The translations under genes and the position numbers were made by a program. DNA of 32,000 nt from Propionibacterium ruminifibrarum (lineage in GTDB: Bacteria > Actinomycetota > Actinomycetes > Propionibacteriales > Propionibacteriaceae). Where the stretch lies: contig NZ_OMOH01000005.1 in the NCBI RefSeq assembly GCF_900289195.1, positions 90,001-122,000 on the forward strand. The letters are read 5' to 3'. Shown here in pieces: positions 2,081-28,700 of this stretch. The notes under the pieces are model-generated. The model did not search any database and had not been told where the DNA came from. It saw only the letters and a list, made by a program, of their open reading frames with translations. Every line of letters starts with the position of its first letter. The first letter of the stretch is position 1.

Positions 2081-2305
2081 CCTCCCATCGAAGCGACGGC
2101 CGTCGGGCACTGGTGACGCGTCAGCTGCCAGCACCCACGTTACGAAGAGACCTCAATGCTGGGCCGTGTCCCTATCAGCGGTCGGCTGGCGCCACCAGGC
2201 CCGGTGACAACACCCCCCGGATCATTCATGCGACAGGGCAGACCAGTCATGCCGGGCCCGGCGACCGTGACCCCAACCAAAGGGGCCACCAACAAGGTAA
2301 CGGGC
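2081..2305 (-). ncRNA. Candidate IS110 bridge (seek) RNA locus in the 5' non-coding end of the element
   Basis: The 225-nt stretch upstream of the transposase is non-coding. Positions 2210-2223 are the exact reverse complement of 826-839 (target flank plus CA core). Positions 2166-2175 are an exact direct copy of 836-845 (core plus IS right end). The RNA itself, its ends and its fold were not verified. Confidence 0.35.
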
Positions 2306-2737: not shown

Positions 2738-2864
2738 GCGAGGACTTGTTCTGAGAATAATTGTTGTGTTCGATAAGCCAATTGTCTCAGTGGCAGGTCC
2801 TCGCCTTTCACCCAGACACGCCCACACCAGCAGAGCAGATTCCAAGATCACCCCTCAAACCAAG

Positions 2865-6668: not shown

Positions 6669-7026
6669 GTTGCGCCGCCAAAATCTCTGAGATCTCGCCG
6701 ATCGAGCGTGCCTCTTGGAAACTCATCAGATCGCATCTGATGCCCAGGTTATTCATGGCCGTGATTATGATATCGACACGGTCGATCGAATTCGCACCCA
6801 AATCCTTGAGAAGAGTGTCGTCATTCGCCAAACTGAGGTCCGTCTCGTAGAGTACATCCTCGACGGCAGTCATCAGAGCCTTGCGTGCTTCATCCATGTA
6901 GTTCATTCCTCTTCTATACATCTTATTGGTTTCTTCGACCATGCGCCATGCACGCTGCCACGGTTCATCATCGTCGTGATTATCAGAATTAGATACCAGT
7001 GACTCTCGTGAATGACTTGCGGTCAT
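6661..7026 (-). CDS. Discrete acyl carrier protein (donor ACP of the beta-branching cassette)
   Basis: LLKDLGANSIDRVDIIITAMNNLG carries the phosphopantetheine Ser at codon 6789-6787. The ORF from ATG 7026 (TAATG overlap with the permease stop) gives 121 aa with an acidic 40-aa N-terminal extension. Internal ATGs at 6906 or 6897 (the latter ~9 nt after AGAGGA) would give a canonical ~80-aa ACP. Confidence 0.85.
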   Translation of the reverse strand: MTASHSRESLVSNSDNHDDDEPWQRAWRMVEETNKMYRRGMNYMDEARKALMTAVEDVLYETDLSLANDDTLLKDLGANSIDRVDIIITAMNNLGIRCDLMSFQEARSIGEISEILAAQRA

Positions 7027-10533: not shown

Positions 10534-12801
10534 TCAAGGGTGAAAAAGGTTGAGAGTGTGGGCGGCTCTGTCGAGCAGCATCGTTGCGATTTCCGAGGTG
10601 CGGCGTTTGCGCCAATCTTCCAAGGGAGTTCCCTTGATAAAGTTGTTGAATGCACCCATTGCGGGACCGCATTGGACTTGATAGTCCAGACGCCATTCGC
10701 GATCTCCCGTTAAGGCAGCAGAAGTCGATTTCATAAAGTACCACTTGAACACAGCGGCCATTTCACTTCTGGGGCTTAGTTCATTTTTTGAACCTTTGTG
10801 GGTTAGCACTTCGGCGCGAACGTCGGCAAGAGGCCTCTTGAAGAACTTGTCCTCCAGCTGCTTGATCGTCTCGGCTGGAACCTGGTCGAGGGAATCGTAC
10901 TGACGATAGATCTCATACAGTTTGTTCGCGCGGGTAGCGAAGAAGGTGCCTTTCCGTACCACTTGTATCTGTGCGCCGAGTTCGAACATGTCACCGCTGA
11001 CCGCCAACTTGGTGTCTTGAACAGCTACTCTACTCAAGAGATCCTTGACAGCTTCTGACGTGTCCGCCTCCACTGTGCATTGGTTCACTGAACCGGTGAC
11101 CACATAGTCAGCTCCGAGCAGGAACGCGGCAGCCATGGCTTCAGGTGTACCTATGCCGCCCGCAGCACCTATGAGCATAGACTTCGTGCCGAAGGATTCA
11201 TATTCAGCATCCTTGACATGACGCCGGATAGTGGGTAGCAGCACAGCCATGGCACCCCCGTCGGTGTGTCCACCAGAATCCGCCTCAATGGTGATCGCAT
11301 CAGCCATGGGTACACTAGCGACGAGCTCGGCCTGATCCTGAGTTATGCTGCCTTCTGTAACCAGCTGGTTCACTAACCGCTGCGGGGCAGCCGATGCGAA
11401 CGCCCTTGCCACCTCGGGATGAGAAAGCTTGGCGATAACCCGATGCCCGATGATCGGACGACCGGTCGAGTCCTTGGTCATACCTGTCGCACGGTACCTC
11501 ACCAACGGCGCTGTCATCGACATGAAGGCGGATGCCTCGACAAGGTCGACATCCTCTTGAAGGAGGACATCAACGAAAGCGTTCTCATGATCGGGCATCT
11601 CAGGCGAAGCGATGTAGTTCACCGCGAAGTGTCCTTTGCCGACACGCCGGGTCAATTCGCGCACTGCATCGCGCACAGCGGCAAAGTCCACGCCCCCCGC
11701 TCCGTAGACGCCGAGCATTCCCGCCTCAGCCATAGCGACAGCCATGGCGACTGAGGAGATCCCCTTGTACATCCCTCCCGCCATGCAGGCGTAGCGCAGC
11801 CCAAATTGCTCTCGAAAAGCAGCAGCTCCTAAGTTATCGGATGACCATGCCCGTGTGCCACGCGTCGGTGGCTTTGTTGTGTTGGGATCGGCGGGTCTCT
11901 GTGACCGGTCCTCCACCTCCATCTCCTCAGCAGCAAGCGGGCTGCAGAGTTGCATGATCTTTTTCGTCAAGCCATTGATCGTATTGCCGGGGCCGACTTG
12001 GATGAACTCATCAACCCCTCTAGCCATGAGATATCTAATGGAATCCACCCAGTTCACAGGACTCACGATTTGGCGTGATAGCAACTTTGCGGCACGGGAA
12101 CCCTCGTAGGGGCGAGCCGTGCAGTTCGAGATCACCTCGATGTGACCGTCGCTGAAGCGCACTCTGGCGAGGTCTCGGTCGAAATCTTTCCTTGCATCCT
12201 CCATATACCTGGAGTGAAAAGGGCCACTGACGTTCAGCGGGACACAACAACACCCCTCGACCTCCGCGAAACGCTCAGCGGCACAGGACAGGTCAACACG
12301 TCGTCCCGATAGAATCGTCTGAACGGGCGTGTTGTAATTCGCGACGTCGATCCCAGTTAGGTCAAATTCGGTCAAGTGGGCGACAATTTTATCACGATCA
12401 ATACCCATGACGGCAAGCATGCCCCCATCGGTGACACGCGCCATCAGTGCTCCGCGCTGCTTCACTAACCGGAGCGCACTTTCGAAATCGAGGATCCCCG
12501 AGGCAACCAAGGCATTGTATTCCCCCAGACTGTGCCCGGCTACGAAGTCTGGCACGGCACCAGATTCCACATAATCAAGGTACATGAGGTGGTTGACCAC
12601 GAACAGTGCAGGCTGTGTGAAAGCAGTGTTCCCGAGTTCCTTGCGGGGATCTTCTTCACACAGCATCCTGATCGAATACCCCAAGATCCGATCGGCGACT
12701 TCCACGAGGTCGGGGTGTCGCAGGAACTGTTGGGTTCCCATGGTGACGAATTGGGACCCTTGGCCAGGGAACAAACATGCTTTCACACCGTTGCCAATCA
12801 T
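10534..12801 (-). CDS. Discrete trans-acting acyltransferase fused to an FMN-dependent enoyl reductase (AT-ER didomain, PksE-like)
   Basis: The AT part has FPGQGSQF, AGHSLGEYNAL (Ser codon 12531-12529), LVKQRGALM (malonyl-binding Arg) and SGPFHSRYM. The ER part is a nitronate-monooxygenase/PfaD-like TIM barrel (GGMYKGISSVAMAVAMAEAGMLGVYGAGG, GGIGTPEAMAAAFLLGADYVVTGSVNQ). The ORF is open to TTG 12882. ATG 12801 (MIGNGVKACLFPGQGSQ) gives the family-typical N-terminus, so the start is uncertain. Confidence 0.9.
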   Translation of the reverse strand: MIGNGVKACLFPGQGSQFVTMGTQQFLRHPDLVEVADRILGYSIRMLCEEDPRKELGNTAFTQPALFVVNHLMYLDYVESGAVPDFVAGHSLGEYNALVASGILDFESALRLVKQRGALMARVTDGGMLAVMGIDRDKIVAHLTEFDLTGIDVANYNTPVQTILSGRRVDLSCAAERFAEVEGCCCVPLNVSGPFHSRYMEDARKDFDRDLARVRFSDGHIEVISNCTARPYEGSRAAKLLSRQIVSPVNWVDSIRYLMARGVDEFIQVGPGNTINGLTKKIMQLCSPLAAEEMEVEDRSQRPADPNTTKPPTRGTRAWSSDNLGAAAFREQFGLRYACMAGGMYKGISSVAMAVAMAEAGMLGVYGAGGVDFAAVRDAVRELTRRVGKGHFAVNYIASPEMPDHENAFVDVLLQEDVDLVEASAFMSMTAPLVRYRATGMTKDSTGRPIIGHRVIAKLSHPEVARAFASAAPQRLVNQLVTEGSITQDQAELVASVPMADAITIEADSGGHTDGGAMAVLLPTIRRHVKDAEYESFGTKSMLIGAAGGIGTPEAMAAAFLLGADYVVTGSVNQCTVEADTSEAVKDLLSRVAVQDTKLAVSGDMFELGAQIQVVRKGTFFATRANKLYEIYRQYDSLDQVPAETIKQLEDKFFKRPLADVRAEVLTHKGSKNELSPRSEMAAVFKWYFMKSTSAALTGDREWRLDYQVQCGPAMGAFNNFIKGTPLEDWRKRRTSEIATMLLDRAAHTLNLFHP
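10537..11775 (-). other. trans-ER domain (FMN-binding, PfaD/PksE type) of the AT-ER protein
   Basis: It has Gly-rich FMN-binding TIM-barrel motifs and shows no Rossmann GxGxxG of MDR-type ER domains. Confidence 0.8.
11890..12790 (-). other. AT domain of the AT-ER protein (malonyl-type by motif)
   Basis: The GQGSQ / GHSLGE / RGxxM / xFHS motifs are all present in canonical order. Confidence 0.85.
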
Positions 12802-13232
12802 GAGGAGTACGGTCACTTGACAATCAGCCAATGTCGTCCAACTTGTGTACGCGCTATGGCGATATAACATCTGACCCGTCAATCTTACCCGATGTTAGGG
12901 GTGCTCCTGTCAATGGTGGCTGGAGGGGTGGGATCCCTGAATCGTCCCGGAGTGGCAGGCCACTCCGGGACGATTCAGGGATCCCACCCCTCCAATTGGC
13001 ATCGGCGTCGAAACTAAGCTTGGTGCGAGCTTGGCTCATGCGTCATGATATTGTGCGTTCGACGTGCATATTTAGCGGAACATGTGGTCAGGGTCTCGAC
13101 GGTATGGTAATCACGTATGATCGAACAATTCAGCTGTGTTCTTCTGCTGTCGGGGACGCGCTCGAATGAGCGTCGAGCCTGGAGGCATGGCCTTGCTGTT
13201 TATAGTGTGTGCCTAGGGAATGGAAAGGATAG
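12802..13232. promoter_or_regulatory. Divergent intergenic control region between the accessory (minus) and assembly-line (plus) operons
   Basis: This is the only sizeable non-coding gap inside the cluster. The first genes of both operons face away from it, and it contains the 35-bp-arm palindrome. No convincing -35/-10 pair could be called by eye. Confidence 0.5.
12921..12994. repeat. Perfect palindrome: 35-bp arms separated by 4 nt
   Basis: The left arm is tggaggggtgggatccctgaatcgtcccggagtgg (12921-12955), the spacer is cagg, and the right arm is ccactccgggacgattcagggatcccacccctcca (12960-12994). The right arm is the exact reverse complement of the left, 35/35. The palindrome is flanked by caat...attg. 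Confidence 0.95.
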
Positions 13233-14474
13233 ATGATGCCTGACCGGGTCGGTATCGAATGTCTCAACTTCTATGGCGGTAGTGCCTATGTAGATGTGGA
13301 AGAGTTGTTCGAATACCGCGGGCTGGACAAGTCTCGTTTCGGCAACCTCATGCTGTATCGCAAGTCGGTTGGTATGCCTTGGGAGGACCCGGTTTCGAAT
13401 GCCGTTAATGCTGCAAAACCGATTATCGATTCTCTTTCAGACGAGAAGCGGAACCGGATCGAACTGGTCGTTACGGCAAGCGAGTCCGGACTTGATTTCG
13501 GCAAGTCTATGAGTACATATGTTCACGATTTGCTCGGGCTCAGCCGGAACTGCCGTGCATATGAAATCAAACAGGCATGCTTCGGTGGTACCGCCGCGCT
13601 GGAGGCGGCCAGCACCTTTGTCGCCTCGGGGATGTGTCAAGGGGCGACGGCATTGGTTTTGGCGACCGATGTGGTCTACTCTACTGCTCGTGGAACCTAC
13701 GCTGAGCCCTCTCAGGGCGTGGGTGCAATCGCAATGCTTGTGAGTGACAATCCGGTTGTTTTTGACTTGGATTTCCAGGCCTACGGAAGTTTGTGCTACG
13801 AGGTCATGGACACATGCCGCCCGGTCGACAATGTCGAAACCGGAGATTCGGATTTATCTCTGCTGTCGTACCTAGACTGTCTGGAGAATTCGTACGCTGA
13901 TTACGCCGCTAAGGTTCAGGGTGCTGACTTTGCAACCACCTTCGATTACTTCGCTTTCCACACACCATTCGCGGGCATGGTCAAGGGTGGGCATCGCAAG
14001 ATGATGCGTGATCTCTATGGAATGAAAAGTCGCGACATCGACACTGACTTCCAGAAGCGGGTCGCCCCGTCGCTACGCTTCTGTAGCGATGTTGGCAACG
14101 TCTACTCCGCCACAGCCTACCTCGCACTATCGTCGCTGGTTTCCAATGCCCCGCTTCAAGGCGCGAGTCGCGTGGGGATTTTCTCCTATGGGTCTGGGTG
14201 TTCTTCGAAATTTTTCAGCGGAATCGTCACCCCAGAATCCCATGCTAGCATCTCACAGATGTGCATACAGGACCGTCTGGATTCGCGATATCGCCTGACA
14301 ATGGCGGAATACGATGAAGTGATCGATGCTAATGAATCATGGGGATTTGGAATCCAGAACAAGGATTCTGATTTCACGCTTCCTAGGGACATCTATGATG
14401 AGCAGTTCCGGGGGACCGGCCGCTTGGTGCTCGATCGGATCAGGGGTTTTCACCGTGAGTATCGGTGGGCTTGA
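13233..14474 (+). CDS. HMG-CoA synthase-like beta-branching enzyme (HMGS; PksG/CurD/MupH type)
   Basis: It has EIKQACFGGTAAL with the catalytic Cys (codon 13578-13580), FAFHTPFAGMVKG (catalytic His region) and SYGSGCSS near the C-terminus. AAAGGA lies upstream of the tandem ATG ATG. Confidence 0.9.
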   Translation: MMPDRVGIECLNFYGGSAYVDVEELFEYRGLDKSRFGNLMLYRKSVGMPWEDPVSNAVNAAKPIIDSLSDEKRNRIELVVTASESGLDFGKSMSTYVHDLLGLSRNCRAYEIKQACFGGTAALEAASTFVASGMCQGATALVLATDVVYSTARGTYAEPSQGVGAIAMLVSDNPVVFDLDFQAYGSLCYEVMDTCRPVDNVETGDSDLSLLSYLDCLENSYADYAAKVQGADFATTFDYFAFHTPFAGMVKGGHRKMMRDLYGMKSRDIDTDFQKRVAPSLRFCSDVGNVYSATAYLALSSLVSNAPLQGASRVGIFSYGSGCSSKFFSGIVTPESHASISQMCIQDRLDSRYRLTMAEYDEVIDANESWGFGIQNKDSDFTLPRDIYDEQFRGTGRLVLDRIRGFHREYRWA

Positions 14475-15268
14475 CGATGGGCTTAGAAAGCGAATTCACC
14501 ACCCTTGATCTCGTCGTTGTCGGCGACATCGCTACCGTAACGCTCGACAGGCCAGAGCATCGCAACAGTTTTAATTTTACGCTGCTTTCGGAGGTGCATC
14601 GTGCACTCGACCTGATCGAGGCGGACGGGCGCATGCGGGCATTGGTGTTGCGTGGTAACGAATCACACTTCTGCACGGGAATGGATTTTCAAGCCTATTC
14701 ATTGGCAGGTTCGAACGCGGCAGGTGGTGAGCGGGGCACTCGGGAATACATGAAGTTGCTACGCCGCCTTTCCATGTTTCCAAAGATCGTCGTCAGCGCT
14801 GTTGAGGGTTTGACGCTAGCTGGTGGCGTGGGTCTGGTAGCAGCTAGCGACTTGGTGGTGGCTTCGACCCGTGCTTCCTTCGGCTTGCCTGAGGTGATGT
14901 GGGGGCTGCTCCCATCGATGGTGCTTCCCCATCTGATCTGGAAGGTCGGGCACCAATCGGCCCGCCGCATGACGATGCTTGGGGGTACCATCTCCGCGCA
15001 GGAGGCGGCGGGAATGGGGCTCGTGGATCAATGTGTTACCCCTGAGCGAATCGATTCGGCGCTGTCTTCGCTGATGATCCGTGTGCGACGCATTCATCCA
15101 CCTGTCGTGGGTGTGATGAAGGAGTATTTCCGAACCCTGTCAGGAATCACTGACAAGGTCGAGGAGGCGGCGGTCTCCATGACCTTCGAATTGGCAAGTA
15201 GGGAAGACGTACGTCAGAACATCGATGGTTACCTGCGGTCCGGTAGGTTGCCTTGGTTAGCCAACTGA
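14465..15268 (+). CDS. Free-standing enoyl-CoA hydratase/crotonase-family protein (ECH1-type dehydratase of the HMGS cassette)
   Basis: It shows the crotonase fold: VTLDRPEHRNSFN, FCTGMDF, and VEGLTLAGGVGLVAASDLVVAS (the oxyanion-hole Gly region). GTG 14465 overlaps the HMGS stop. ATG 14477, 3 nt after that stop, is an equally good start. Confidence 0.85.
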   Translation: MGLTMGLESEFTTLDLVVVGDIATVTLDRPEHRNSFNFTLLSEVHRALDLIEADGRMRALVLRGNESHFCTGMDFQAYSLAGSNAAGGERGTREYMKLLRRLSMFPKIVVSAVEGLTLAGGVGLVAASDLVVASTRASFGLPEVMWGLLPSMVLPHLIWKVGHQSARRMTMLGGTISAQEAAGMGLVDQCVTPERIDSALSSLMIRVRRIHPPVVGVMKEYFRTLSGITDKVEEAAVSMTFELASREDVRQNIDGYLRSGRLPWLAN

Positions 15269-15289: not shown

Positions 15290-18200
15290 GTGAGGAAGAT
15301 GAGCGGTATAGAGTTCAGGCCTTCCCAGGACATCGCGATCATCGGCATGTCGGCGAGAACCTCGTTGGGATCCGATTGCGATGAGCTGTGGCAGGCACTT
15401 GTCGAGCAGCGCAGCGCCGTACGGCCGCTCACTCGCGATCACTTGGAGACGGACGCGATCTATCGTGCTGATCCCGACCAGTTTGGTGGAATTGAAGAAT
15501 CCTTGTTCAATGCCCCGGTGCCTGAGGCGGACAAGTTCGATGCAGGTTTTTTTCGGATCACTCCACGTGAGGCTCGCACGATGGATCCGCAGCAGAGGCT
15601 TCTCCTAGAGGAGACCCAGCACTGCATCGATGACTCAGGTGTGGGGATCGCTGAACTGCGCAGGGGAGACACCTGCGTGTATGTCGGTGCGACGGGTAAC
15701 GACTACGCCCTGCTGGCCTTCCAGCAGGGCGTAGACACGGATCCCTACGCCCCACTTGGCAATTTCAGTTGCATGCTGGCGAATCGTATTTCGCATACCT
15801 TTGGGTTGCAGGGCGAGTCGATGAGCCTTGACACTGCCTGTTCCTCATCCTTGGTTGCGATTGATCTTGCCTGTCGTCAACTGAGGTCTGGTGCAGGAAA
15901 CTACGGTGTTGCAGCGGGTGTGTGTCTGACTAATCATCCGTGGCGTTTCGTCTCCTTCTCCAGAGCACACATGATGTCGCCGGACGGTGTGTGCCGGGCG
16001 TTCGATGCCCAGGCAAATGGTTTCGTCCAAGGCGAGGGAATCGGTGTTCTCCTGTTGGAGCGCCTTGAGGACGCTCAGCGCAAGAAGCATCGGATCCTTG
16101 GCGTCATCAAGGGTGGCGCGGTTAGTTTCGGTGCAGGTGTGGCCAGTGTTAGTGCTCCCAATCCGGCCGCACAGCAGCGGGTCGTTGGCGCCGCACTCAC
16201 CCGTGCGGGCATTGATCCTGCCATGGTTGGGTTCATTGAGGCACACGGGACTGGCACCAGTCTTGGTGATCCAATCGAGATCGAATCGCTGACTCGTGCG
16301 TTTCGGAACATTAATCCGGACACGCCGGATCAGATCTGTGGTGTCGGGTCGATCAAAACCAACGTCGGGCATCTAAGTTCGGCAGCCGGGGTAATCGGTG
16401 TCATCAAGGTCCTGATGATGATGAGAGAGAGGACCTTGACTCCCAGTAGGAACCTGATCGAGGAGAATCCTCTAATCGGCTTCTCCCACACCCCGTTCTA
16501 TCCGGTGCGTGAAGTATCCAGTTGGACTCCCGTCACAGGGCAGGAGGTACTTGTCGCCGGCGTCAGCGGATTCGGTTTCGGGGGCGTGAACGGGCATCTC
16601 GTGATCACGTCTGCGCCGACAAGACCCCCGTCCACGCCGCCCCGTCGATCGGTGCCGCTGTTAGTCTCCGCTCATACCCCCGGGAGTCTGAAGCGTCTCG
16701 AAACTGCATGGGCCGACTTCGCTCGAGCTCCACGCGGACGTGACGCGGACCATGAAGCGGTGGTGCGCTCCGCCATGGTGGGGCGGGAGCCGCAGCCGTT
16801 TCGCCGTAGCGCGATGATGGGTCCGGCGGATTCTCTTTCAGACGTTGTTGCCGACTTGACGGGTCCCAGCGAGGAGAACGTCCAGGAACCTCTCGGACTC
16901 ACGCTCGGCCCGGTCGCCTGGGGATCGCTGGCGCCCGACCCCGGCGAGGGATCGTCCGTGCGCCGCGTGCGTGATATGCTCCGCGAATCACATCTGGACG
17001 AGCTCGCTGACGAGGTCGTCGGCGGGTTGTTTGCTGGGATGATTCTCCTGGAGAACGTCGAGGGAATCTCATATGTGGTGTGCGGCCGTGATCAGGGGCT
17101 GATCGGACTCATCCTGTGTGGTGCTTTGAGCCCGGCGGATGGGTTCATTGCGTACCGTGATCGGTCAGCCTGGTCCGACCTGCAGGTCAACCGCCCTGAT
17201 GTTGAGTTGCGTTCGGGGGACGGCCGACCCTGGCTGCGTCCCACCGAGTTGCCTGTGGGATACTTGGCTGATCTCGTATCGGCGGTTCGGGAGGACATCG
17301 CGGTGTCCAGCGCTGACACCGATGCCATCCTCCAGATGTTCAACCACCAGTTCACCTACCAGCGTTTCGTGAAGCAGTGGCTGGAATCCCTGCGTGCGGT
17401 CGCCTCCGTCGACAGTCCGATCGGCCAGCTTGCCACCGACCACCGTGGCTTGGTGGTTCAGCTTGCGGGAACGGAAGCGGGCAGGCTGGCGCTGGGCGTG
17501 ATCCATGAGTCCTCTCGGCGCCGCATACAGCGCAAGTGGGCCCTGCACGAGGCTGACTCCGCGACGGCCATCGCCGAGCTCGGCCGACTGGTCGACGGTG
17601 GCCATCTTGGCATGGATGCCGTCATGGAACTTCTTCTTGCTGACGTCGATGCGAACGATATTTCCTTGTCAGGTCTGGAATCTCTGACGCCAGCAAGGAT
17701 CTCCGAGGACTTTCCGATGCTGTACGCTGCCCAACAGGCGCCCGGCTCCCTCGACCAAGTGATGGCGCGCCTCGATGGACACAGCCCGGCAGGTGCGACC
17801 GCATTGTGCGTGGGCGACGGACAGCGAATCGTATCCAGCGTTGGTGCATGCGACGATCTCGCGCAGGCGATCACGACGTTGTGGACCGCAGGTGCGCAGG
17901 TTCACTGGGACACGCTGTACGAGTTCGTGACGGAACCGGCATCGATACCGATGACCCAATTCGATAGACAACGGTATTGGATTAACCCGGCTGTTATCCC
18001 CTCGCCGGGATCCAATCAGCGTACCTTTCCTTTGCTGGGCTCTCCAGCAGAGTCATCCGTTGACAGCGCCTCCGGTGCGTCGGTGGTGGTCACAACGATT
18101 AGCGCTGAGCAGTCGGTGGTGCGTGACCATGTGGTCGGCGATGTCGCTATCCTCCCCGGGACAGCGTACGTAGAACTGGCCATGGAGGCTTTCGAGGCTG

Positions 18201-21200
18201 TGACCGGAGCTAGGGCAGCGGGGGTGCGCAAGGTCTCCTGGCTACGCCCCATGGAGTTTGGCCAGGGAGTCGGGTCACGTAAGGTGAAGGTTTTCTTGGC
18301 GCACTCTGATGGGGGCGAGCATCATTTCAGCGTCTCTTCGTACCAGTCGAATGAGTGGACGGAGCACGCCAAGGGAATGGTTCACGGGCACTCGCAGACG
18401 CAAGAGGTCAGCCAGACTCCCGCACTGGATGTGACCACGCTCCTGGGACAGGCACACTTTAGCTTCACCAAGCAGCAGGTGTACGGCACCGTGTTCTCCG
18501 AGGCAATCGGATTCGACTACGGTCCCGCCTTCCAGATGACCGGTAGTGCCCACGGTCTTGGGGATCGTTCCGTCGAGGTGCTTGACACCGCTGATGCTCT
18601 CCTCAAGAGCCCGCAGGGCTACAGGGCTCATCCCGCGGTCCTGGATGCGAGTCTTCGGGCCGTCAACTGGCTGGGATCGCAGGAGGACTGCACCTCCCTG
18701 GTGATGCAGGTTCCGTTCTCCATGGAAGAGTTCAGGATCGCTGGCGACCTTGTAGGCGCCAAGTACGTCGTGGCAAGGATGTCGCCGCAGGCGTGCTCGT
18801 CGTCGGTTCGCGTACACGACATCGACGTGTTCGCTACTGATGGACGATGCGTCGCCCAGGTCCGTGGCTTCGTGCTGAGGCCCTTGGCTGTCGGGCACCG
18901 GGTCGACGGGCTCGAGGTCTTCACCCGCGAACTCTCCCCGGTGGTCGGTGATCGGGCGCGTCCACTGACTTCACCCGACGCGGTGTTCCTAGTGGCCGAC
19001 GCAGCATGCGACCCGGGTCTTCGTGACGTAGCCGACACCATGGCCCGGCACCGCGCCTCCGCGGGAGCCGATCTGCGCATTGTGACCGATCTTCCGGCGC
19101 TGCTGGAGACGGTGGATGTCGGTGCGGGCACGCGGATCGAGGTGATCCAGTGCGCCCCCGGCGCGTCGGAAGCGGCAACCCCCGACACCGCGCCCGTGCT
19201 CGACATCAACGACTGGTTCAAGCAGGTTGCTGACCACGAATGGGTGGTCCGACACGTTGTGCTGGCCAGGGATGACATTCCGGTTGACCCGTTCATCGGC
19301 TGTCTGGACGTGTTCACCAAGTCTATTCGCTTCGTTTACCCGGAGTTCACGGTCGGCGTGATCGCGGTCGAGGCGGATACTTCGGGCGGATTGGTGCAGT
19401 TGAGTCAGGAGACCATGGATGCCGCACTGGCTCGGATAGCCGATGTCGCCTATCAGGTGGTGGGGTCCGAAGGCATTCGCGCCCATCGTTTCGTCCCAGC
19501 GGAGGCCAGCCCGATTATCGACGCGCAGGTCATCAGGCCGGGTAGCACCTATCTCGTCTCGGGTGGAGCAGGTGGGATCGCTCTTGAGCTTGTGCGTCAC
19601 TATCTGTGCGAGGTCGACGCCCATTTCGTGCTCTTGGGGCGTCGCGATCCCGAGCAACTTCCCGATGAGGTCAGGCAGGCGCTCCGAGACCTGGGATCGA
19701 CCGTCGAATACCGCGCCTGTGACGTCACCGATAGCGCAGCGTTGGACATGGTTGTGGACGACATCATCGCCGGTCCACGCCCCCTTGCGGGAGTGTTCCA
19801 CCTTGCCGGGGGCATCGTCCCCTTGAATGCACGAGAACTCGGACGTGATGCGCTCCACGACGCACTTGCGGCCAAGGTGATTGGTGCCCACCATCTGGAC
19901 CGGGCTACCTCACATCTTAAGCTCGACTTCTTCGTGGTCTTCTCATCCCTGTCCGCCGTCGTCGGGGATTCGATGGGATCCGGCTACGCCTTGGCTAACC
20001 AAGCGCTCAATACTTTCGCGGAACTGCGTTGTCGTCGTGTCGCTGCAGAACGGGGATCGGGTAGGACTTGCTCGGTGATGTGGCCTGTGTGGGCTTCCGG
20101 CGCGCTGCGGCCCACCGATGACCAAGACGTGGTGCTCAAGAAGTACTTTGGACTACGTGAGTTGGAATCGGGTGAGGCGTTCTTGGCCCTCAATAGGATC
20201 ATCGCCAAGGGAATCACGGTGAGCATGGTCCTAGATGGGGATCCCACTCGTTACGACGCCCTTGTTGAGCGCCCGGATGCCCAGAAATCTGCCCGGCCGG
20301 TTGCCGAGTTGGTGACGGATCGAGCTGCAGTGCCTTCCGCAGGCAAGGGCCGCTCGCAGGTAACCGAGTGGATTCGTGGACTGATCTCCGAGGAGTCCGG
20401 GATCGATGCATCCGCAATCAGTGACAGTGCAGATCTTGGTTGCTATGGCATCGACTCCATCATGATAATTAACCTCCTCGAGAAGATGGGTGCTCGTTTT
20501 GTCGACCTTCCCAGCACGCTGTTCTTCGAGCGCCAGACAATCAAGGAAATCACGGACTATCTTGAACAGCACGACCCGAGCGCATGTGAAGGATTCATGC
20601 ACGCAGCAGGGGCCGAGGCGCCCGAGCAACCCTGCGTGGTGTCGGACGCGCCGTGCGCCAGCTCTCAATCACCTGTAGCACCCTCGCCGGTTGATGAGCC
20701 CATTGCCGTCATCGGACTGGCTGGTGTCTATCCGCAGTCGGATGATCTCGAGGAATTCTGGCGCCACCTCTTGGCAGGTGATGATTGCATCGAAGTCGTC
20801 CCAGCGAATCGTTGGGATCATGGTCAGTATTTCTCCGCTGGGGGAGGAACTGATCGTGTCAACGTGCAATGGGGTGGATTCCTGAACGACGTCCGGGGGT
20901 TCGACGCGAGATTCTTCGGGATCTCGTACCGCGAGGGTAAGTCGATGGATCCGCAGGAGCGTTTGTTCCTGGAAACCGTCTATCACGCATTCAACGACGC
21001 CGGGTATCCGCGTCAACGCATCCAGGGCACCGACACCGCCGTCTACGTCGGGGTCATGAACGGCCTCTACCAGATGATCGAGGCGGAGGAACTGGCCGTG
21101 GGACATGTGGTAGAGGCGCGATCCACCTATGCGGCGATCCCCAACAGGGTGTCGTTCGTCTTCGACCTGCGTGGACCGTCGATGGCACTCGACACCATGT

Positions 21201-24200
21201 GTTCGTCGTCGTTGACTGCCCTGCACTTGGCCTGCGAAGAGTTGCGGCGGGGCTGCAGCCACATGGCGGTGGCCGGTGGTGTGAATCTCATCACGCATCC
21301 GGCCAAGTATGTCTTCCTCAGCGAGCAACACTTCGGGTCGACGGAGGGTAAATGTAGAGCCTTCGGTGATGGTGGCGACGGATATGTTCCCGGCGAAGGA
21401 GTCGGTGCCGTGATTCTCAAGCCACTGTCGGCAGCCCTCGCTGATGGCGACCGGATCCACGGGGTCATCAGGGCCACCGGACTGAACCATGGCGGGCGTA
21501 CGAACGGTTTTACCGTCCCCAATCCGCGCGCCCAGAAGACGCTGGTGGCCTCGGTCTTGGATCGAGCGGGCGTCGTCGCCGGCGAACTTGGTTATGTGGA
21601 GGCGCACGGTACAGGTACGGTCCTCGGTGATCCGATCGAGGTCACCTCCCTGGTAGGTGCGTTCAGTCAATGTGGGCTCGATTTCGGTGAGCGTGGCGTC
21701 CCCATTGGATCGGTCAAGGCCAACATCGGGCACACCGAATCGACTGCCGGCATCGCCTCCCTGACCAAGGTTCTTCTTCAGATGAAGCATCGTCGCATCG
21801 TCCCATCAATCCACGCTGATCCGCCGAATCCTCGCCTCAGGCTCGAGGAGACCCCTCTGCGGGTTCTCAGGGATTCGGCACCGTGGGACGTGAACGCACA
21901 CCCCACCGCGCTTATCTCGTCCTTCGGCGCAGGCGGATCCAACGCCCATGTGGTGCTTAGCGCACTACCCGGGAACCTGGACCATGGAAATCGCATTTCG
22001 TCCGACAACGGCCAATTGATCATCCTTTCGGCAGTCTCCCGGGAAGCCCTCGACGAACAGGTCGAGTCCCTGCTCGGCTGGCTACGTGAGCGAAGTGTTG
22101 GCGAAGGATACGCGCGGATTCTGTTGGTGGTCGTCGGTGCTGTTGCTGCCGTGCTCGGTGTGACTGACGATGACGTGACCAGTGACCAGTCTCTCCGCGA
22201 TCTGGGCTTCGTGAGCGACGATTTCGGCCGCTTGTGGAATGAACTCGAGGCTAGGGCCGGGCGGGCGATCCGGTTCTCGCTTGCGGAGGACACGACGGTG
22301 GGGGACATCGCACGTCAGCTCAATGAGCAGGGGTCATCGGGATCGGGAAGTGTCGAGTATGCTGCCGACGACTCCGGGGCGATGCTTGCTAGCATCGCAC
22401 GCACCCTTCAGCAGCATCGTGAACCGCTTGAGGCCCGTGCGGCATTCGTGGCTCGCTCACTGGGTCACCTTGAGGGGCTGCTGCGCGCCTTCCTGGACGG
22501 GCGGAGCGATCTGGACGTGTCATTTGGCATGGTTGATCGTTATCGGACGCAGACTCCCATCGCGAATGACCTGTTGTCCGCAGCCGCGGCCAACGGCGCC
22601 TGGCATGACGTGGCTCGAGGGTGGGTATCCGGTCAAGATAGCGACTGGTCGATTCTTTACACCGATGACGCCGTGCCATTCCTCGACGATCTGCCGGGCT
22701 ACCGGTTCCATCACACCCCGCTGTGGATTGACCGCCGAACGGTCACTGGGATCCGTCATGGTGTGGGCTCTGACCTTGCCCCGCTACGCGCCCGGGTGAT
22801 GGTGCCGGAGGACGGATCGCCGACACGCTTCAGATGGGGTCTTGACCCGCAAGACCCGGTCGTCGCTGACCACGTGATCGGGGGGCACCCTCTCGTGCCT
22901 GCGGCGGCTCAGATCATGGCTGTGCGAGGATGTATGCGGATGCTCGGCGAGCAGCAGATGACTACACTCTCAGACATCACCTTTGTGGCACCCATCCAGG
23001 TTACATCCCATACCGAAGTGGAGATGTCCCTGCACCGGCAGGGAAGCGCCATCGCGGCAACCGTCGAGACTATCCGACCGGATGGGGAAAGGACGCTGCA
23101 CAGTCGGATGGTTCTCGGCAGTGGCTGCCTTGATGGGGCCCGATCACCGATCAGTCTTGCTGTTCGGGGTGATCAGCTCAGCAGGAACGACATCTACGCA
23201 GCCTTTCAGAATGAAGGCATCGACTACGCGGGGTCCTTCCGCTCGTTGGAGTCTGTGACCCGTGGGGTCGAGGTGGCCACGGCGGTGCTGGACGGCGCTC
23301 TAAGTTCGATCCCAGATCCTGAGTTGGCGGCCGTGTGCCGTCTCGATGCAGCGCTGCAGTTGTCCAGTGTCTTCGTCGGCCCGTTAGCGGGAGGCGTGGC
23401 CCGTCCGCACGTGCCTGCAGGGCTAGAATCCATCACTTTTATCGACGCCACGGGCATACCGACGACCGCAGTCGTGCAACGTCGTAGCGAGGACGTGTTC
23501 GACGCCCGGCTCTGTTCTGCATCCGGTGAAGTCGTCCTCGTGGTTTCGGGCCTGCGAGTCGCGCCTTTGTGCGGGCATGACAGCAGGCCTGATCCGGAAT
23601 GCTCGCAGCAGGAGGTTCTGGAGGCTGACGGCTTGGATTCGTGGGTCAGGGAAGAGATCCGGGGAGACATCCTGCGCGTGCTCGCTTCGAAGGTCGAGAT
23701 GCCGCTGGATCAGATCAACCCCGATTGGACGTTCGTCGATCTGGGTGTGGATTCCGTTGTTGGGCTGCAGATCATCGACGAACTCAACGAACTGTTCCAG
23801 TGTTCGATCCGATCGACTGCGCTGTTCGATCTCCCTACTGTCGGTCAGCTTGCCGATCACCTGTCACAGGACGAGCATGTCGTTTCTGTTGTGTCACGCC
23901 GCGTCCATTCAGGCACGCAGACCCGCGTGCCTGAGTCGACCGATCACGCCCTCGCGACCGTCGTTGTCCCCGACTCAGTAGCAACGCCGAACACCGAGAG
24001 GGAACCGATCGCGGTGATCGGGATGTCGGGCAACTTCCCCGGCGCCCGGACACCTGAGGCGTTCTGGGAGTTGCTGAGCGAGGGGCGCTCGAGTGTCAGC
24101 GAAGTTCCGGTCGATCGATGGGATGCCGAGAATCTCCATAGGGACGACGTCGGTGACATGGCTGGATGCGTCAGCAAGTGGGGAGGCTTCATCGCTGGGC

Positions 24201-25798: not shown

Positions 25799-28700
25799 AC
25801 TCATCCGCGAATGGATACTCAAGGGGATCCGCAGTGGACTTCTCGAGCCGGCTCGGGGCGTTGAACTGATTAATTCCGGAGCCCATCTCAATACCCGTCT
25901 GGGACGCCTCGTCCGCGTTCCCGCCCCGCTGTCGGGATCCCACTCGCGATCGGTGGGCCGTCGTCTCGATATCTCGGGATCGCGTGCCAGCACGTGGGAC
26001 GACGCCCTGCGGGCGGCACGCGAACGTGACGGAGCGTATCCCCAGACTGTGGTGATCCGGGGTATCGATGATGCCGACCGTGCGATGCCGTTGGTCGTAT
26101 TCGACGCCTTGAGGCGTCTGATCACTCAGTCACTCGAAAACAGTCGCGGCGAACAACTGCGATTGATATGCGCAGTGGACAATGATAGTGCTCTCGCGGA
26201 GGGTCTGGCAGCGATGTTTGCCTCAGCCAACAGCGAGGAGAACTTGCTGGCCGCGACCGTGGTGTCAGGCAACTGGACCGAGGACATCCTCACGGCAGCC
26301 GCCTGCATGCAAGGTCCGGTCGATGCACATTGGACGGTCGACGCAATGCAGATCTTTGGAGATCGACTGGAGATGCGTCGGCTCGATACCGCTCCACTCG
26401 AGGGCATCGTGCGGACCGGGGGAACCTACGTCATCGCCGGTGGGCTCGGGGCACTGGGATTCGCGCTGTCGCGTCACCTCAGCCGCACATACCAGGCCCG
26501 GCTGGTGCTCATCGGCACACGCCCGAAAGCTGACGTTGAGACGCGGATGGAGGCGCTCAGGAAACTGGGTGGCGATCCTGAATACATGGTTGTCGATCTC
26601 AGTCGCGAAGACGCCACAGGACGCCTTCTGGAAGCGTTGGAAGGTCATAGCGAGGTGCGTGGTGTCGTCCAGTGCGCTGGTGTGACCTCCGATGCCTTGC
26701 TCAGGCAGGCACCTGCCGAGTCCGTCGCACAGGTGATCAACACCAAGGTGCGCGGGGTTGCCGCTCTCGACGCGGCTACGGCGGGTTGCCAACTGGACTT
26801 CTTCGCCGCCTTCTCGTCGATCAGTGGACTTCTGGGTAACTTCGGGCAGTCTGACTATGCATTCGCTAATGCCTACCAGATGGGCTGGATGCGTGAGCGC
26901 GCTGCTCGCGTTGCTGCTGGCGACAGGCACGGCCGAAGCGTTGCCATCGCTTGGCCATTCTGGGAGGACGGCGGTATCAGCGCTCCCCGGCAGGCCGTCA
27001 ATCGGCTGACACGCGATCTGGGTATCGAACCCTTGCAGACCTGGTTGGGAATGGGCCTGTTCGAGACGGCGCTGACCAGTGATGAGCCGGTGTTCGCGCC
27101 GGTCACGGGTTCCGATCTGCGTATCCCGACCGGCATTCCCGCAGAAGCTCCCAAGCAGCCGGTGTCCAGGCAGGAGGCGGCGGATGTCCGATCACGATTT
27201 GTGAGCCATCTTGTCCAAGTCTATGCGACAGTTTACGAGGTCCCTGCTGATGAGATTCGCCCCGAGGTGAACCTGCAGTCGTACGGACTCGACTCCGTAC
27301 TCGTGTCGAAAGTGGCAGCGAGGCTGGTCAGGATCATCCCTAACCTCCCTACCTCGGTCTTCTTCGACTGCTCAACGATCGATGAGATTGCTGATCGCCT
27401 TCTGGATAAATTCCCGGAGCAGCTTGCCGATCAGTTCGGGTCAATGGCGTCGATTCCTGCGGAGCAGCCTGTGACCGAGCCTGCACATGACGTGACCTCC
27501 GAGGTCCCGGCCGGTTCGCCACTGTGCACCAATGTCATGGCGTCTGACATGGACCTGGTCACAGCACCCGTCGATGATCGTGGCTCCGGGAAGTGCCACC
27601 GCACAGTCCATCAGAATCGCAGGGGCATCGCCATTGTGGGCTACGCCGCGCAGATGGCCGGAGCGGACAATGCCGAGGAGATCTGGCAGACCCTGGCCGA
27701 GGGATTAGACCGGGTGAGCACGTTCCCGGCTTCCCGACGCACTGATCTGGTTGGGAACAACAGCGTGCCGCTCCAGTTCGAACAGGTCGCCGAGGTTGAC
27801 TGGCACCAGCCGGGAAGTTTCATTGACGACCCTTGGGGATTCGATGCTCGCTTCTTCGGGGTTTCCGCGAGGGAGGCCCGATGTATGGATCCCCAGGAGC
27901 GAGTGGCGCTAGAGAAGACGTGGCAGGCGTTCGAGGACGCCGGTATCACTCCCGAAGCGGCCGCCGAGAGCACGGATGGTGACGTCGGTGTCTTCGCGGC
28001 CATGACGAACTTTACCCACTACCTTCTCGGTGCCCATGGGATCGCCTCGGATTCCTACATCCCGCAATCCTCCGGGTGGTCGCTGGCGAATAGGATCTCT
28101 TCCGCATTCGATTTCCATGGTCCTAGTCAATGCGTCGATACTGGTTGTTCATCCTCCCTGTACGCGTTAGTGCAGGCATGCCAAGCGCTGACGCAAGGTG
28201 ATTGCCGCATGGCTGTCGTCACTGCAGCCAATCTCTATCTCCATCCCCTGAAGTTTGCCATGCTCAGGGAGCGTAATATGTTGTCCGACAAGGGGAGATG
28301 TTTCACATTTGGTGCGAATGCCGACGGTTTCGTCCCCGCTGAGGGAGCAGCTTCGTTGATCCTGCGTCCGGTAGAAGACGCTGAACGTGATGGCGACGAC
28401 ATCAAGGCAGTCGTGTGGTCTTGGGCTGTGAATCACGGCGGGTCGACGCACGGGTACACCGTTCCGTCGCCGAAGCTGCAGGCATCTGTTATCAGGAAGG
28501 CGCTCGAGGCTGGAGACCTGAGCGCGGACCAAGTGAGCCTCATTGAAGCGCACGGCACCGGCACACCATTGGGTGATCCGATCGAGATAGAGGGTCTGAC
28601 CGATGTTTTCAGCGACGTGGCGAGGGAGACCCCCCTGTTCGTCAGTTCGATCAAATCGAATTTCGGCCATGCGGAATCCATGGCGGGACTGGCATCGGTG

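What the first reader, a model, noticed from the sequence alone, without database searches (positions are those of the whole stretch)
16640..17990. Full-length but dead cis-AT-like domain (GHSxG -> GRDQG) inside module 1 of a trans-AT assembly line
Seen: about 450 aa separate KS1 from DH1, against roughly 170-260 aa after KS2, KS3 and KS4 in the same proteins. By eye the stretch is collinear with a cis-AT KS-AT linker, AT and post-AT linker:
- LLVSAHTPGSLKRLETAWADF is the linker helix.
- AVVRSAMVGREPQPFRRSAMMG lies at the position of xxLxxGRxxFxHRA.
- LGLTLGPVAWGS lies at the position of FxFxGQGxQW.
- FAGMILLENVEGISYVVCGRDQGLIGLILCGALSPADGFIAYRDRS lies at the position of QPALFAxxVAL...VxGHSxGExAAAxxAGxLSLxDAxRxVxxRS.
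- LWTAGAQVHWDTLYEF...MTQFDRQRYWI lies at the position of the post-AT YPFQRxRYW.
- The nucleophile position is Asp (codon 17090-17092). The GQGSQ loop and the AFHS His motif are unrecognisable.

Established: the GHSxG Ser and the downstream His form the AT catalytic dyad. Trans-AT modules normally retain only a short flanking/docking remnant after the KS.

Inference: module 1 also has the cis-AT-like order DH-KR(with structural subdomain)-ACP. It probably descends from a cis-AT module whose AT decayed once a trans-AT took over, or it is a recombination hybrid. The relic may now act as a docking platform for the AT-ER or the GTSLG protein.
Basis: partly seen in the sequence, partly recalled or inferred. 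Interest (0 to 1): 0.65.

Follow-up and report, generated by a model that had tools for sequence, protein, structure and literature searches.

The report
Conserved dead acyltransferase-like domain after KS1
The extra 320 residues after the first ketosynthase of this trans-AT polyketide synthase are a conserved but catalytically dead domain derived from an acyltransferase, shared with the first module of the myxopyronin synthase MxnK, and it looks like two broken acyltransferase half-copies under selection, not one intact decaying one.

Summary
The quoted strings, coordinates and the Asp at codon 17090-17092 are correct. KS1 is followed by 457 aa before the post-AT linker motif, against 129-256 aa after KS2-KS4.

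The window sequence alone gives no significant acyltransferase (AT) match: no Pfam hit, and -1.7 bits with my own AT HMM. It does belong to a rare family of nine proteins in about seven lineages. Members include MxnK of Myxococcus fulvus, three actinomycetes and a gammaproteobacterial MAG. In all eight complete proteins the insert follows the N-terminal, chain-starting KS.

Family profiles match AT profiles specifically, but in two separate segments:
- aa 576-628 matches the GHSxG elbow (P about 3e-6).
- aa 672-814 matches the AT N-terminal half a second time (P about 4e-6).

Nothing matches the small subdomain or the His motif, and no member keeps a conserved Ser in either copy. An insert-only AlphaFold model finds no AT fold.

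The insert is as conserved as the catalytic domains: 89% identity with no gaps between close MxnK orthologues. The family's KS1 domains form their own clade.

"Dead and AT-derived" is therefore supported. "Full-length, collinear, recently decayed" is not. The likely role is a selected non-catalytic scaffold tied to chain initiation; that role is inferred, not shown.

The parts
15323..16609 (+). KS1 (PKS1 aa 12-440). It is N-terminal with no upstream ACP. Cys-His-His is intact: DTACSSS aa 181-187, HGTGT aa 319-323, NVGH aa 358-361.
   Evidence: Pfam ketoacyl-synt and Ketoacyl-synt_C; motif positions. It groups with the KS1 domains of the other insert-bearing proteins: 404-660 phmmer bits against 319 or less for any other KS.
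16643..16873 (+). KS-flanking linker, the N-terminal half of the KS-AT-type linker domain (aa 452-528). Includes LLVSAHTPGSLKRLETAWADF and VGREPQPFRR.
   Evidence: phmmer against PDB aligns aa ~431-530 with 5erb 455-556 and 4wky 422-501. The family profile matches the linkers of 7zma and 5erb. Pfam RhiE-like_linker or CurL-like_PKS_C hits in 4-5 of 6 family members.
16874..17272 (+). AT-like segment 1 (aa 529-661). It holds a beta1-like LGLTLGP (aa 535-541), the nucleophile-elbow remnant GRDQG (aa 599-603, Asp601 in place of Ser), the SPADGF helix (aa 614-619), then NRPDVELRS...VGYLADL (aa 634-662).
   Evidence: The family profile against PDB hits cis-AT PKS ATs at the elbow in 14 of 16 matches, best E 0.0019. 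hhalign of the N-part against an 81-sequence AT profile: P 2.8e-6, Prob 88, AT columns 80-132. Block shuffles score at most 31 against 38-43 observed. Aa 630-661 weakly matches AT columns 224-256 (PxIPFxS...YW), P 0.013. If real, the small subdomain has been deleted from this copy.
17303..17731 (+). AT-like segment 2 (aa 672-814), mostly helical. It carries the family's conserved motifs: HQFTYQRFVKQW (aa 686-697), RKW (aa 748-750), AELGRLVDGGHL (aa 762-773) and FPML (aa 808-811). It aligns with the AT N-terminal half. The GHSxGE position reads ATAIAE, so there is no Ser.
   Evidence: hhalign of the C-part against the AT profile: P 4.1e-6, Prob 87, 138 columns, AT columns 19-159. Block-shuffle null 13.1 +/- 2.0, maximum 18.6, against 33.7 observed. 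hmmsearch --max gives two AT-N-half hits per protein in 6 of 9 members. Not reproduced by an HMMER profile search against PDB sequences.
17732..17842 (+). Poorly conserved tail (aa 815-851) predicted with low confidence.
   Evidence: pLDDT below 50 for the last ~20 residues of the insert-only model. No profile match.
17843..17989 (+). Post-AT linker (aa 852-900) with LWTAGAQVHW and PMTQFDRQRYWI.
   Evidence: phmmer against PDB: 5erb 594-637, 7s6b 886-935. NCBIfam Pks13 976-1019.
18032..20569 (+). The rest of module 1: DH (HVVGDVAILP aa 947-956), structural KR subdomain, KR (aa 1419-1602) and ACP (aa ~1685-1760).
   Evidence: Pfam PKS_DH_N, PS-DH, KR and PP-binding. The same KS-insert-DH-KR(-ACP) order occurs in P0002, P0004/MxnK and P0006. 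Window PKS1 and P0001 align domain for domain through the ACP.
10534..12882 (-). Free-standing AT-ER, the functional trans-acting AT of the cluster. GHSLGE and GPFHS are intact.
   Evidence: Pfam Acyl_transf_1 88 bits, NMO and FabD_helical_ins; sequence.

Best explanation
Aa ~529-851 of PKS1 form a conserved, non-catalytic pseudo-acyltransferase domain. It sits at the AT position beside the chain-starting KS of a particular trans-AT module type. That type is KS-pseudoAT-DH-KR-ACP here and in MxnK, and KS-pseudoAT-ACP in the actinomycete members.

The domain descends from AT sequence but is no longer a single AT. It reads as two tandem, heavily eroded copies of the AT N-terminal half. Copy 1 keeps the nucleophile elbow without a Ser and seems to lack the small subdomain. 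Copy 2 is truncated just after the elbow helices.

Malonyl loading is done by the free-standing AT-ER. The pseudo-domain is kept by selection as a folded scaffold or interaction surface. Because it always accompanies the first KS, which has no upstream ACP, its role is most likely in chain initiation or in holding module 1's architecture.

Shown: the position, the AT ancestry of both segments, the loss of catalytic residues, family-wide conservation, and the link to N-terminal KS domains.

Inferred: the tandem-duplication history and the non-catalytic scaffold or docking role.
For: Family.
- A phmmer search of 1.84 billion cluster representatives with the insert found five true relatives, each with the insert directly after an N-terminal KS. 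One of them, P0004, is a Myxococcus fulvus polyketide synthase (AGS77291.1, 6045 aa). I identify it as MxnK from its module order and the published myxopyronin scheme (PMC5724707).
- Three actinomycete proteins cover 98% of KS1 plus insert.
- The Lentzea locus is a small trans-AT PKS with a discrete AT.

AT ancestry.
- The insert-only profile against PDB hits almost only cis-AT PKS ATs, all at the elbow.
- hhalign against an 81-sequence AT profile gives P 2.8e-6 for the N-part and 4.1e-6 for the C-part.
- Controls: shuffled and reversed versions score far lower. DH, structural-KR, KR and KS alignments from the same proteins give P 0.12-0.54.
- hmmsearch finds two AT-N-half hits in 6 of 9 members.

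Dead.
- The nucleophile position reads D, D, Q, K, G, K in the six proteobacterial or unassigned members. The actinomycete members read GNS or GNG, so the Ser there is not conserved.
- There is no conserved His or Arg, and no Pfam AT hit.

Under selection.
- MxnK against its Corallococcus terminator orthologue: insert 89% identical with 0 gaps, against KS 90% and DH 86%.
- Window against P0001: insert 29-37%, similar to the structural KR region (35%) and the flanking linker (36%).
- Conserved motifs are QxTFxRxxxxW, W-x-L and EL..L.

Co-evolution with KS1: the family's KS1 domains are monophyletic in a small neighbour-joining tree.
Against: - The window's own sequence gives no significant AT signal. 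Everything rests on a nine-member, fairly shallow family alignment.
- The insert-only AlphaFold model (pLDDT 68.8) finds no AT or any other fold in PDB.
- The AT-containing Foldseek hits to the longer model may come largely from the linker.
- Segment 2's AT similarity appears only in profile-profile comparison and in low-scoring hmmsearch hits. An HMMER profile search against PDB did not find it.
- Direct comparison of the two copies with each other is only P about 0.05, although the alignment is in register.
- Conserved polar residues (Gln, Thr, Arg, Glu) could mark a new active or binding site, so "non-catalytic" is not proven.
- No data bear on docking or initiation.
Confidence: 0.6

Rival explanations
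1. One reading: a single full-length AT fold that lost its catalytic residues fairly recently, after a trans-AT took over, and is now drifting as a relic.
For: The insert is 317-350 aa, about the length of a cis-AT (305-332 aa). A low-confidence collinear hhalign path exists, pairing FNHQxTF with AFHSxxM and RRIxRKW with YWxxLRxxVRF.
Against: - The collinear C-terminal alignment is not significant: score 12.6 against a shuffle mean of 11.4 +/- 1.3.
- The same residues match the AT N-terminal half at P about 4e-6.
- There is no Foldseek AT hit for the insert alone.
- Conservation equals that of catalytic domains, with no indels between close orthologues.
- The family spans distant phyla and has its own KS1 clade, so the loss of activity is ancient and the domain is maintained.
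Confidence: 0.12
2. A domain with a new function that binds or transfers something. One example would be handing an acetyl or propionyl starter from acyl-CoA directly to the Cys of the N-terminal KS, using a new site built from the conserved Gln, Thr, Arg and Glu residues.
For: The domain is strictly linked to chain-starting KS domains that have no loading domain or upstream ACP. The conserved polar residues lie in QxTFxR and EL motifs. The domain is under purifying selection.
Against: No nucleophile (Ser or Cys) is conserved in either copy. Most invariant residues are hydrophobic or aromatic (W, L, F), as expected for a folding core. There are no biochemical data, and no similarity to any known transferase site.
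Confidence: 0.15
3. Not AT-related at all: a novel helical insert in the KS flanking region whose AT resemblance is a coincidence of helix patterns.
For: No Pfam or NCBIfam family matches the insert. Foldseek on the insert-only model returns only random helical proteins. The HMMER C-part profile finds no AT in PDB.
Against: Two independent segments reach P about 3-4e-6 against the AT profile. Reversed, shuffled and unrelated-domain controls stay at P >= 0.06. PDB hits for the insert profile are almost exclusively ATs aligned at the same motif. The insert lies exactly between the two linker pieces that flank ATs in cis-AT PKSs.
Confidence: 0.08

Closest known systems
Integrated AT domains of cis-AT modular PKSs (for example Lsd14 7s6b, PikAI 8czc, DEBS 2hg4)
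   Same: The position between the KS-AT linker and the post-AT linker. The strand-elbow-helix-helix sequence pattern (G-x-x-x-G...SG.LS.ADA). Overall length of about 320 aa.
   Different: No Ser, His, Arg or GQGSQ. No detectable small subdomain. The second half repeats the N-terminal half instead of completing the fold. Below every curated AT threshold.
KS flanking subdomain of trans-AT PKSs, also called the linker domain or AT-docking region (for example 5erb, PksJ 4na1, 7zma)
   Same: Both linker pieces are present and align. The cluster is a genuine trans-AT system with a free-standing AT-ER.
   Different: Those structures join the two pieces with a few tens of residues (about 38 in 5erb). 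Here about 320 conserved residues lie between them.
Module 1 of MxnK, the western-chain synthase of myxopyronin (Myxococcus fulvus AGS77291.1), and its Corallococcus terminator orthologue
   Same: The same KS-insert-DH-KR-ACP first module, a homologous insert (24-26% identity to the window, with the same motifs), and a cluster with a beta-branching cassette and a trans AT/ER (PMC5724707).
   Different: Only distantly related. The downstream assembly line differs, and no MxnB/CorB-type pyrone-forming KS is seen in the window. The published scheme's domain legend lists no AT-like domain. It does list an "X" domain that I could not map.
Structural pseudo-domains of megasynthases, such as the structural KR subdomain of PKS/FAS and the pseudo-methyltransferase of animal FAS (from general knowledge)
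   Same: A once-catalytic fold retained without its active site and conserved as architecture.
   Different: Those are single recognisable folds with solved structures. This one derives from an AT, seems to consist of two fragments, and has no structure.
Tandem AT-AT free-standing proteins of trans-AT systems (from general knowledge)
   Same: Two AT-type units in a row, which offers a possible origin for the two-copy layout.
   Different: Those are complete, active or hydrolytic ATs on separate proteins. Here both copies are fragments fused inside a module. This origin was not tested.

Membership tests
FabD/PKS acyltransferase family (Pfam Acyl_transf_1, PF00698) | Match to the family HMM above the curated threshold (32.7 bits) | tested here: not met
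   No hit at E<=1 for PKS1 or for the excised region. Only 1 of 6 family members hits, at E 1.4. My own AT HMM scores the window at -1.7 bits and the best member at 19 bits.
FabD/PKS acyltransferase family (Pfam Acyl_transf_1, PF00698) | GHSxG nucleophile Ser | tested here: not met
   Copy 1 reads GRDQG in the window, and D, Q, K, G or K at that position in relatives. Only one actinomycete member has a possible Ser (GNSAA), and its two close relatives have Gly. Copy 2 reads ATAIAE.
FabD/PKS acyltransferase family (Pfam Acyl_transf_1, PF00698) | Catalytic His in the (Y/H)A(S/F)HS motif | tested here: not met
   No segment aligns significantly with the AT C-terminal half (P 0.14-0.46). The only candidate position reads H, H, S, G, H, N across the family.
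FabD/PKS acyltransferase family (Pfam Acyl_transf_1, PF00698) | GQGSQ oxyanion loop and the carboxylate-binding Arg after the elbow helices | tested here: not met
   PGEGSS occurs only in the window sequence. The Arg of RDRS is not conserved in relatives.
FabD/PKS acyltransferase family (Pfam Acyl_transf_1, PF00698) | Two-subdomain fold: an alpha/beta large subdomain plus a ferredoxin-like small subdomain | tested here: inconclusive
   The linker-plus-insert model (pLDDT 62.7) hits only AT-containing PKS structures, but with TM about 0.24 over about 215 columns. The insert-only model (pLDDT 68.8) hits nothing, best E 0.5. Both models rest on a shallow six-sequence alignment.
FabD/PKS acyltransferase family (Pfam Acyl_transf_1, PF00698) | Remote sequence homology to the AT large subdomain, as evidence of descent and not of membership | tested here: met
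   hhalign P 2.8e-6 and 4.1e-6 for the two segments, with clean controls. PDB profile hits are almost all ATs.
trans-AT KS flanking subdomain | N-terminal linker piece and C-terminal post-AT motif, both present | tested here: met
trans-AT KS flanking subdomain | The two pieces are joined directly, so that KS end to post-linker motif spans roughly 130-260 aa | tested here: not met
   457 aa here, against 129, about 159 and 256 for the other three KS domains in the window. 5erb has about 38 aa between the pieces.
MxnK-type initiating module (KS-insert family defined here) | Insert homologous over its full length, placed after an N-terminal KS of a trans-AT PKS, with the QxTFxRxxxxW and EL..L motifs | tested here: met

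The most novel reading that the evidence does not exclude
The insert defines an unrecognised pseudo-enzyme domain class: a tandem pseudo-AT that is an obligatory partner of chain-starting KS domains in a subset of trans-AT PKSs, including the myxopyronin synthase. In this reading it takes an active part in initiation, for example by binding the starter acyl-CoA or the trans-AT and presenting it to KS1/ACP1. It would also be a molecular fossil showing that at least one trans-AT module lineage arose from an AT-containing ancestor.
Probability: 0.2. Interest if true: 0.75.

Novelty: new variant of a known kind. Interest (0 to 1): 0.5.

Why it matters
Trans-AT PKS modules are usually described as lacking any AT, with only a short flanking subdomain after the KS. 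The evolutionary relation between trans-AT and cis-AT systems is still debated.

This result describes a conserved AT-derived pseudo-domain that has no Pfam or NCBIfam model. It is tied to the first KS of several assembly lines, one of which makes the RNA-polymerase inhibitor myxopyronin.

It gives three things:
- A concrete trace of AT ancestry inside a trans-AT module.
- A new domain boundary for engineering and for annotation tools, which currently leave about 320 aa blank.
- A testable handle on how N-terminal KS domains without a loading module are primed.

If it turns out to be only architectural, it is still a modest and useful addition to the list of megasynthase pseudo-domains.

Tried and rejected
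- Word-indexed homologue searches with the insert alone and with the insert alignment found nothing.
- Pattern-based locus scans of genome and metagenome contigs added only a near-duplicate MxnK orthologue, L001. The other loci matched only the post-AT linker. I reused four of them as a source of cis-AT sequences.
- BLASTP of the insert against the cluster's own two ATs was not significant.
- Pfam and NCBIfam on the whole region and on each half gave nothing.
- Foldseek on the insert-only model gave no fold assignment.
- An HMMER profile of the C-part against PDB returned only noise: Ssr1 and RTEL1.
- Collinear mapping of the second half onto the AT small subdomain and His motif was rejected as not above shuffles.
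- KS1 against PDB does not place KS1 with either cis-AT or trans-AT KS domains. Bit scores are 309 for PksJ, 308.6 for CurL and 297 for Lsd14.
- I could not find the source organism. The window's HMG-CoA synthase is not on record.
- I could not obtain the original myxopyronin cluster paper. I also could not map the "X" domain of the published MxnK/MxnI/J scheme. No phosphoglucomutase-like hit appears in the MxnK or MxnJ orthologues.
- Literature searches for vestigial, pseudo or inactive ATs in trans-AT PKSs found no description of this domain.
Full report
**Setting.** The window carries a trans-AT polyketide synthase cluster.
- A free-standing AT-ER lies at 10534..12882(-), with GHSLGE and FHS intact.
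- A second AT-like protein with GTSLG lies at 2913..3914(-).
- The beta-branching set comprises an HMG-CoA synthase (13233..14474), an ECH (14465..15268), a Cys-to-Ser KS (5424..6668) and a discrete ACP (6661..7026).
- There are also a PPTase, a metallo-beta-lactamase-fold protein and ABC transporter genes.
- The synthases are PKS1 (15290..25798, 3502 aa), PKS2 (25788..31160) and the start of a third PKS.
- By Pfam, PKS1 reads KS1-[gap]-DH-KR-ACP-KS2-...-DH-ACP-KS3. No Acyl_transf_1 hit appears anywhere in it.

**The observation.**
- The distance from the end of each KS to the Trp of the post-linker motif is 457 aa for KS1. It is 256 aa for KS2, 129 for KS3 and about 159 for KS4.
- phmmer against PDB sequences shows that the two ends of the region are ordinary. 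Aa ~441-530 is the KS-flanking linker and aa ~855-900 the post-AT linker (also NCBIfam Pks13).
- The trans-AT structure 5erb joins these pieces with about 38 residues. PKS1 has about 330 residues there, close to the roughly 355 of the cis-AT Lsd14.
- So a domain-sized insert sits at the AT position. By itself it has no significant similarity to ATs. Pfam finds nothing at E<=1. BLASTP against the cluster's own ATs gives E 1.3-5, although the top alignment pairs PGEGSS with PGQGSQ.

**A family exists.** A word-indexed search found nothing. A full phmmer scan of 1.84 billion cluster representatives with aa 520-885 found five real relatives.
- P0001 is 35% identical over the whole insert. Its domains align one for one with PKS1 through the ACP.
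- The others are P0002, P0004, P0006 and the partial P0008.
- P0004 is a Myxococcus fulvus polyketide synthase, AGS77291.1. By size (6045 aa), module order and the published scheme it is the western-chain synthase MxnK of myxopyronin (PMC5724707 and PMC12728655).
- P0008 comes from a gammaproteobacterial MAG. A Corallococcus terminator orthologue of MxnK was recovered as L001.
- A later search with KS1 plus insert added three actinomycete proteins at 98% coverage: Streptomyces, Lentzea and Actinophytocola, each KS-insert-ACP-KS.
- The Lentzea locus is a small trans-AT PKS with a discrete 279-aa AT.
- In all eight complete proteins the insert follows a KS at the extreme N terminus, with no upstream ACP. 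P0008 is truncated at its N terminus. In the window, P0002, P0004 and P0006 the next domains are DH and KR. P0001 aligns with the window over the same span.

**Catalytic residues.** In the nine-member alignment the GHSxG position reads as follows:

| Member | Elbow sequence |
|---|---|
| Window | GRDQG |
| P0001 | GTDQG |
| P0002 | GRQQG |
| P0004 | GEKHG |
| P0006 | GCGEG |
| P0008 | CAKGG |
| Actinomycetes | CGNS / CGNG |

- No Ser is conserved. No His or Arg equivalent is conserved either.
- What is conserved is family-specific: Q-x-T-[FY]-x-R-x-x-x-x-W (window aa 686-697), a Trp in RKW (aa 748-750), E-L-x-x-L (aa 763-767) and a Pro-Leu motif.
- Pfam finds no AT in any member at a meaningful E-value.

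**Is it AT-derived?** Yes, but only profile methods can see it.
- An HMM of the six-member insert alignment, with the linkers removed, hits 16 PDB sequences at E<=10. Fourteen are ATs of cis-AT PKSs, all aligned on the nucleophile elbow. The best is 7s6b residues 658-703 at E 0.0019.
- With the linkers included, cis-AT KS-AT chains align as one continuous stretch from the linker to the elbow.
- hhalign against a six-sequence AT alignment scores 36-39. The reversed alignment scores 16.7, column shuffles 12.9 +/- 2.0, and 15-column block shuffles 18.7 +/- 2.5 with a maximum of 27.
- With nine family members and an 81-sequence AT profile, the N-terminal part reaches P 2.8e-6 and Prob 88, matching AT columns 80-132.
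- DH, structural-KR, KR and KS1 alignments from the same proteins give P 0.12-0.54 against the same AT profile.

**It is not a full-length collinear AT.**
- The part after the elbow does not match the AT C-terminal half, which holds the small subdomain, the His motif and the C-terminal helices. Its score of 12.6 sits within the shuffle range of 11.4 +/- 1.3, with P 0.14 using nine sequences.
- Aa 672-814 matches the AT N-terminal half a second time. The match covers AT columns 19-159 over 138 columns, at P 4.1e-6 and Prob 87. Block shuffles give 13.1 +/- 2.0 with a maximum of 18.6, against an observed 33.7.
- In that alignment the motifs pair off as follows:

| Family motif | AT motif |
|---|---|
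| LF.HQ.TF.R | LY...PVF |
| LLLFVAVESAF..L..KW | PALFAVEYALA.LW..WG |
| E-L..LV.DGVL | GE..AA..AGVLSL |

- An AT HMM run with --max gives two separate hits, both to AT positions ~20-125, in six of nine members.
- The two halves compared with each other give only P about 0.05, but the alignment pairs elbow with elbow.
- A third, weak match (P 0.013) pairs aa 630-661 with AT columns 224-256, the PxIPFxS...YW motif. HMMER and hhalign both found this pairing. It would mean copy 1 lost its small subdomain.
- The simplest reading is two tandem, eroded AT fragments. I hold the two-copy history with moderate confidence. The evidence is profile-level only, and an HMMER profile of the second half found no AT in PDB.

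**Structure prediction does not settle it.**
- The model of linker plus insert plus post-AT linker has pLDDT 62.7. Its top 40 or so Foldseek hits are all AT-containing PKS structures (E 9e-6 to 1e-3). However, TM is only about 0.24 over about 215 columns, and much of that could come from the linker.
- The insert-only model has pLDDT 68.8 and pTM 0.57. It shows a small alpha/beta N-terminal part followed by a helical region. It has no significant PDB match, and AT hits appear only at E 2.7-4.3.
- Both models rest on six sequences.

**It is under selection, not decaying.**
- Between MxnK and its C. terminator orthologue the insert is 89% identical with no gaps. The KS is 90% and the DH 86%.
- Between the window protein and P0001 the insert is 29-37% identical. 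That is similar to the structural KR region (35%) and the flanking linker (36%).
- Against MxnK the insert (25-30%) is as conserved as the DH (27%) and the ACP (26%).
- The KS1 domains of the family score 404-660 bits with each other, against 319 or less for any other KS examined. They form one clade in a small neighbour-joining tree, apart from the other trans-AT KS domains of the same proteins and from a few cis-AT KS domains.
- PDB bit scores do not place KS1 with either class.
- The KS-insert unit is therefore an old module type, not a local accident in this cluster.

**Mechanism.**
- Shown: the domain cannot work as a Ser-His acyltransferase, and a functional AT-ER is encoded nearby.
- Inferred: it is a retained scaffold or interaction surface at the lateral AT position of a chain-starting module. 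That KS1 has to be primed without a loading domain.
- Whether the insert docks the trans-AT, positions ACP1, or binds a starter acyl-CoA was not tested here. I give the non-catalytic scaffold reading about 0.6 and a new binding or transfer function about 0.15. A drifting full-length relic gets about 0.12 and a non-AT origin under 0.1.

**Novelty.**
- I found no description of this domain in the papers I could search.
- The published MxnK scheme lists KS, DH, KR, CP, MT and an unmapped "X", but no AT-like domain. The original cluster paper was not available, so I cannot exclude that the insert was noted there.
- Dead or structural relatives of catalytic domains are a known kind in megasynthases. 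An AT-derived one, apparently in two pieces and tied to initiating KS domains of trans-AT PKSs, is a new variant of that kind.

Noticed in passing
window ~22130-22320 (PKS1 aa ~2281-2343), inside 21959-22870: The flanking linker after KS2 is split in two by an ACP-like insert. Pfam PP-binding scores 23.3 bits, above its 20.8 cutoff, and the motif reads LRDLGFVSDD where DLGxDS is expected. The RhiE-like/CurL-like linker hits fall on either side of it. This nested carrier-protein-like domain explains the 256-aa spacing after KS2.
   Followed up: partly
window 2913-3914 (-): A second free-standing AT-family protein has GTSLG in place of GHSxG. GQGSQ and AFHS are intact, and Pfam Acyl_transf_1 scores 105 bits. 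It may be an acyl hydrolase or a second AT. Its role was not examined.
   Followed up: no
window 5424-7026 (-): A KS with its active-site Cys replaced by Ser (GTQSAAS) lies directly downstream of a discrete 121-aa ACP. Together with the HMG-CoA synthase and ECH genes, this is the usual beta-branching donor pair.
   Followed up: partly
window 854-2851: An IS110-family transposase lies at 854..2134(-). GC drops from about 0.62 to about 0.55 near 2.8 kb, at the left edge of the cluster. This may mark a mobile or recently acquired boundary.
   Followed up: no
window ~31150-32000 (+), frame 3: A third PKS gene starts right after PKS2. A docking-like N terminus is followed by a KS (PIAVIGMSG...DTACSSS) that runs off the window end.
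   Followed up: no
P0010 aa ~585-600; also P0013, P0017: The actinomycete family members read CGNSAAA or CGNGAAA at the elbow. One of the three keeps a Ser that could sit at the nucleophile position, depending on a one-residue gap. Their first module is KS-insert-ACP, which resembles a KSQ-AT-ACP loading module with a Cys-containing KS.
   Followed up: partly
L002 and L004 (Thermoanaerobaculia and Holophagales MAG contigs): These large PKS proteins have four or five KS domains. Only one KS in each is followed by a GHSxG-containing AT within ~420 aa. They may be mixed cis/trans-AT assembly lines. I used them only as a source of cis-AT sequences.
   Followed up: no
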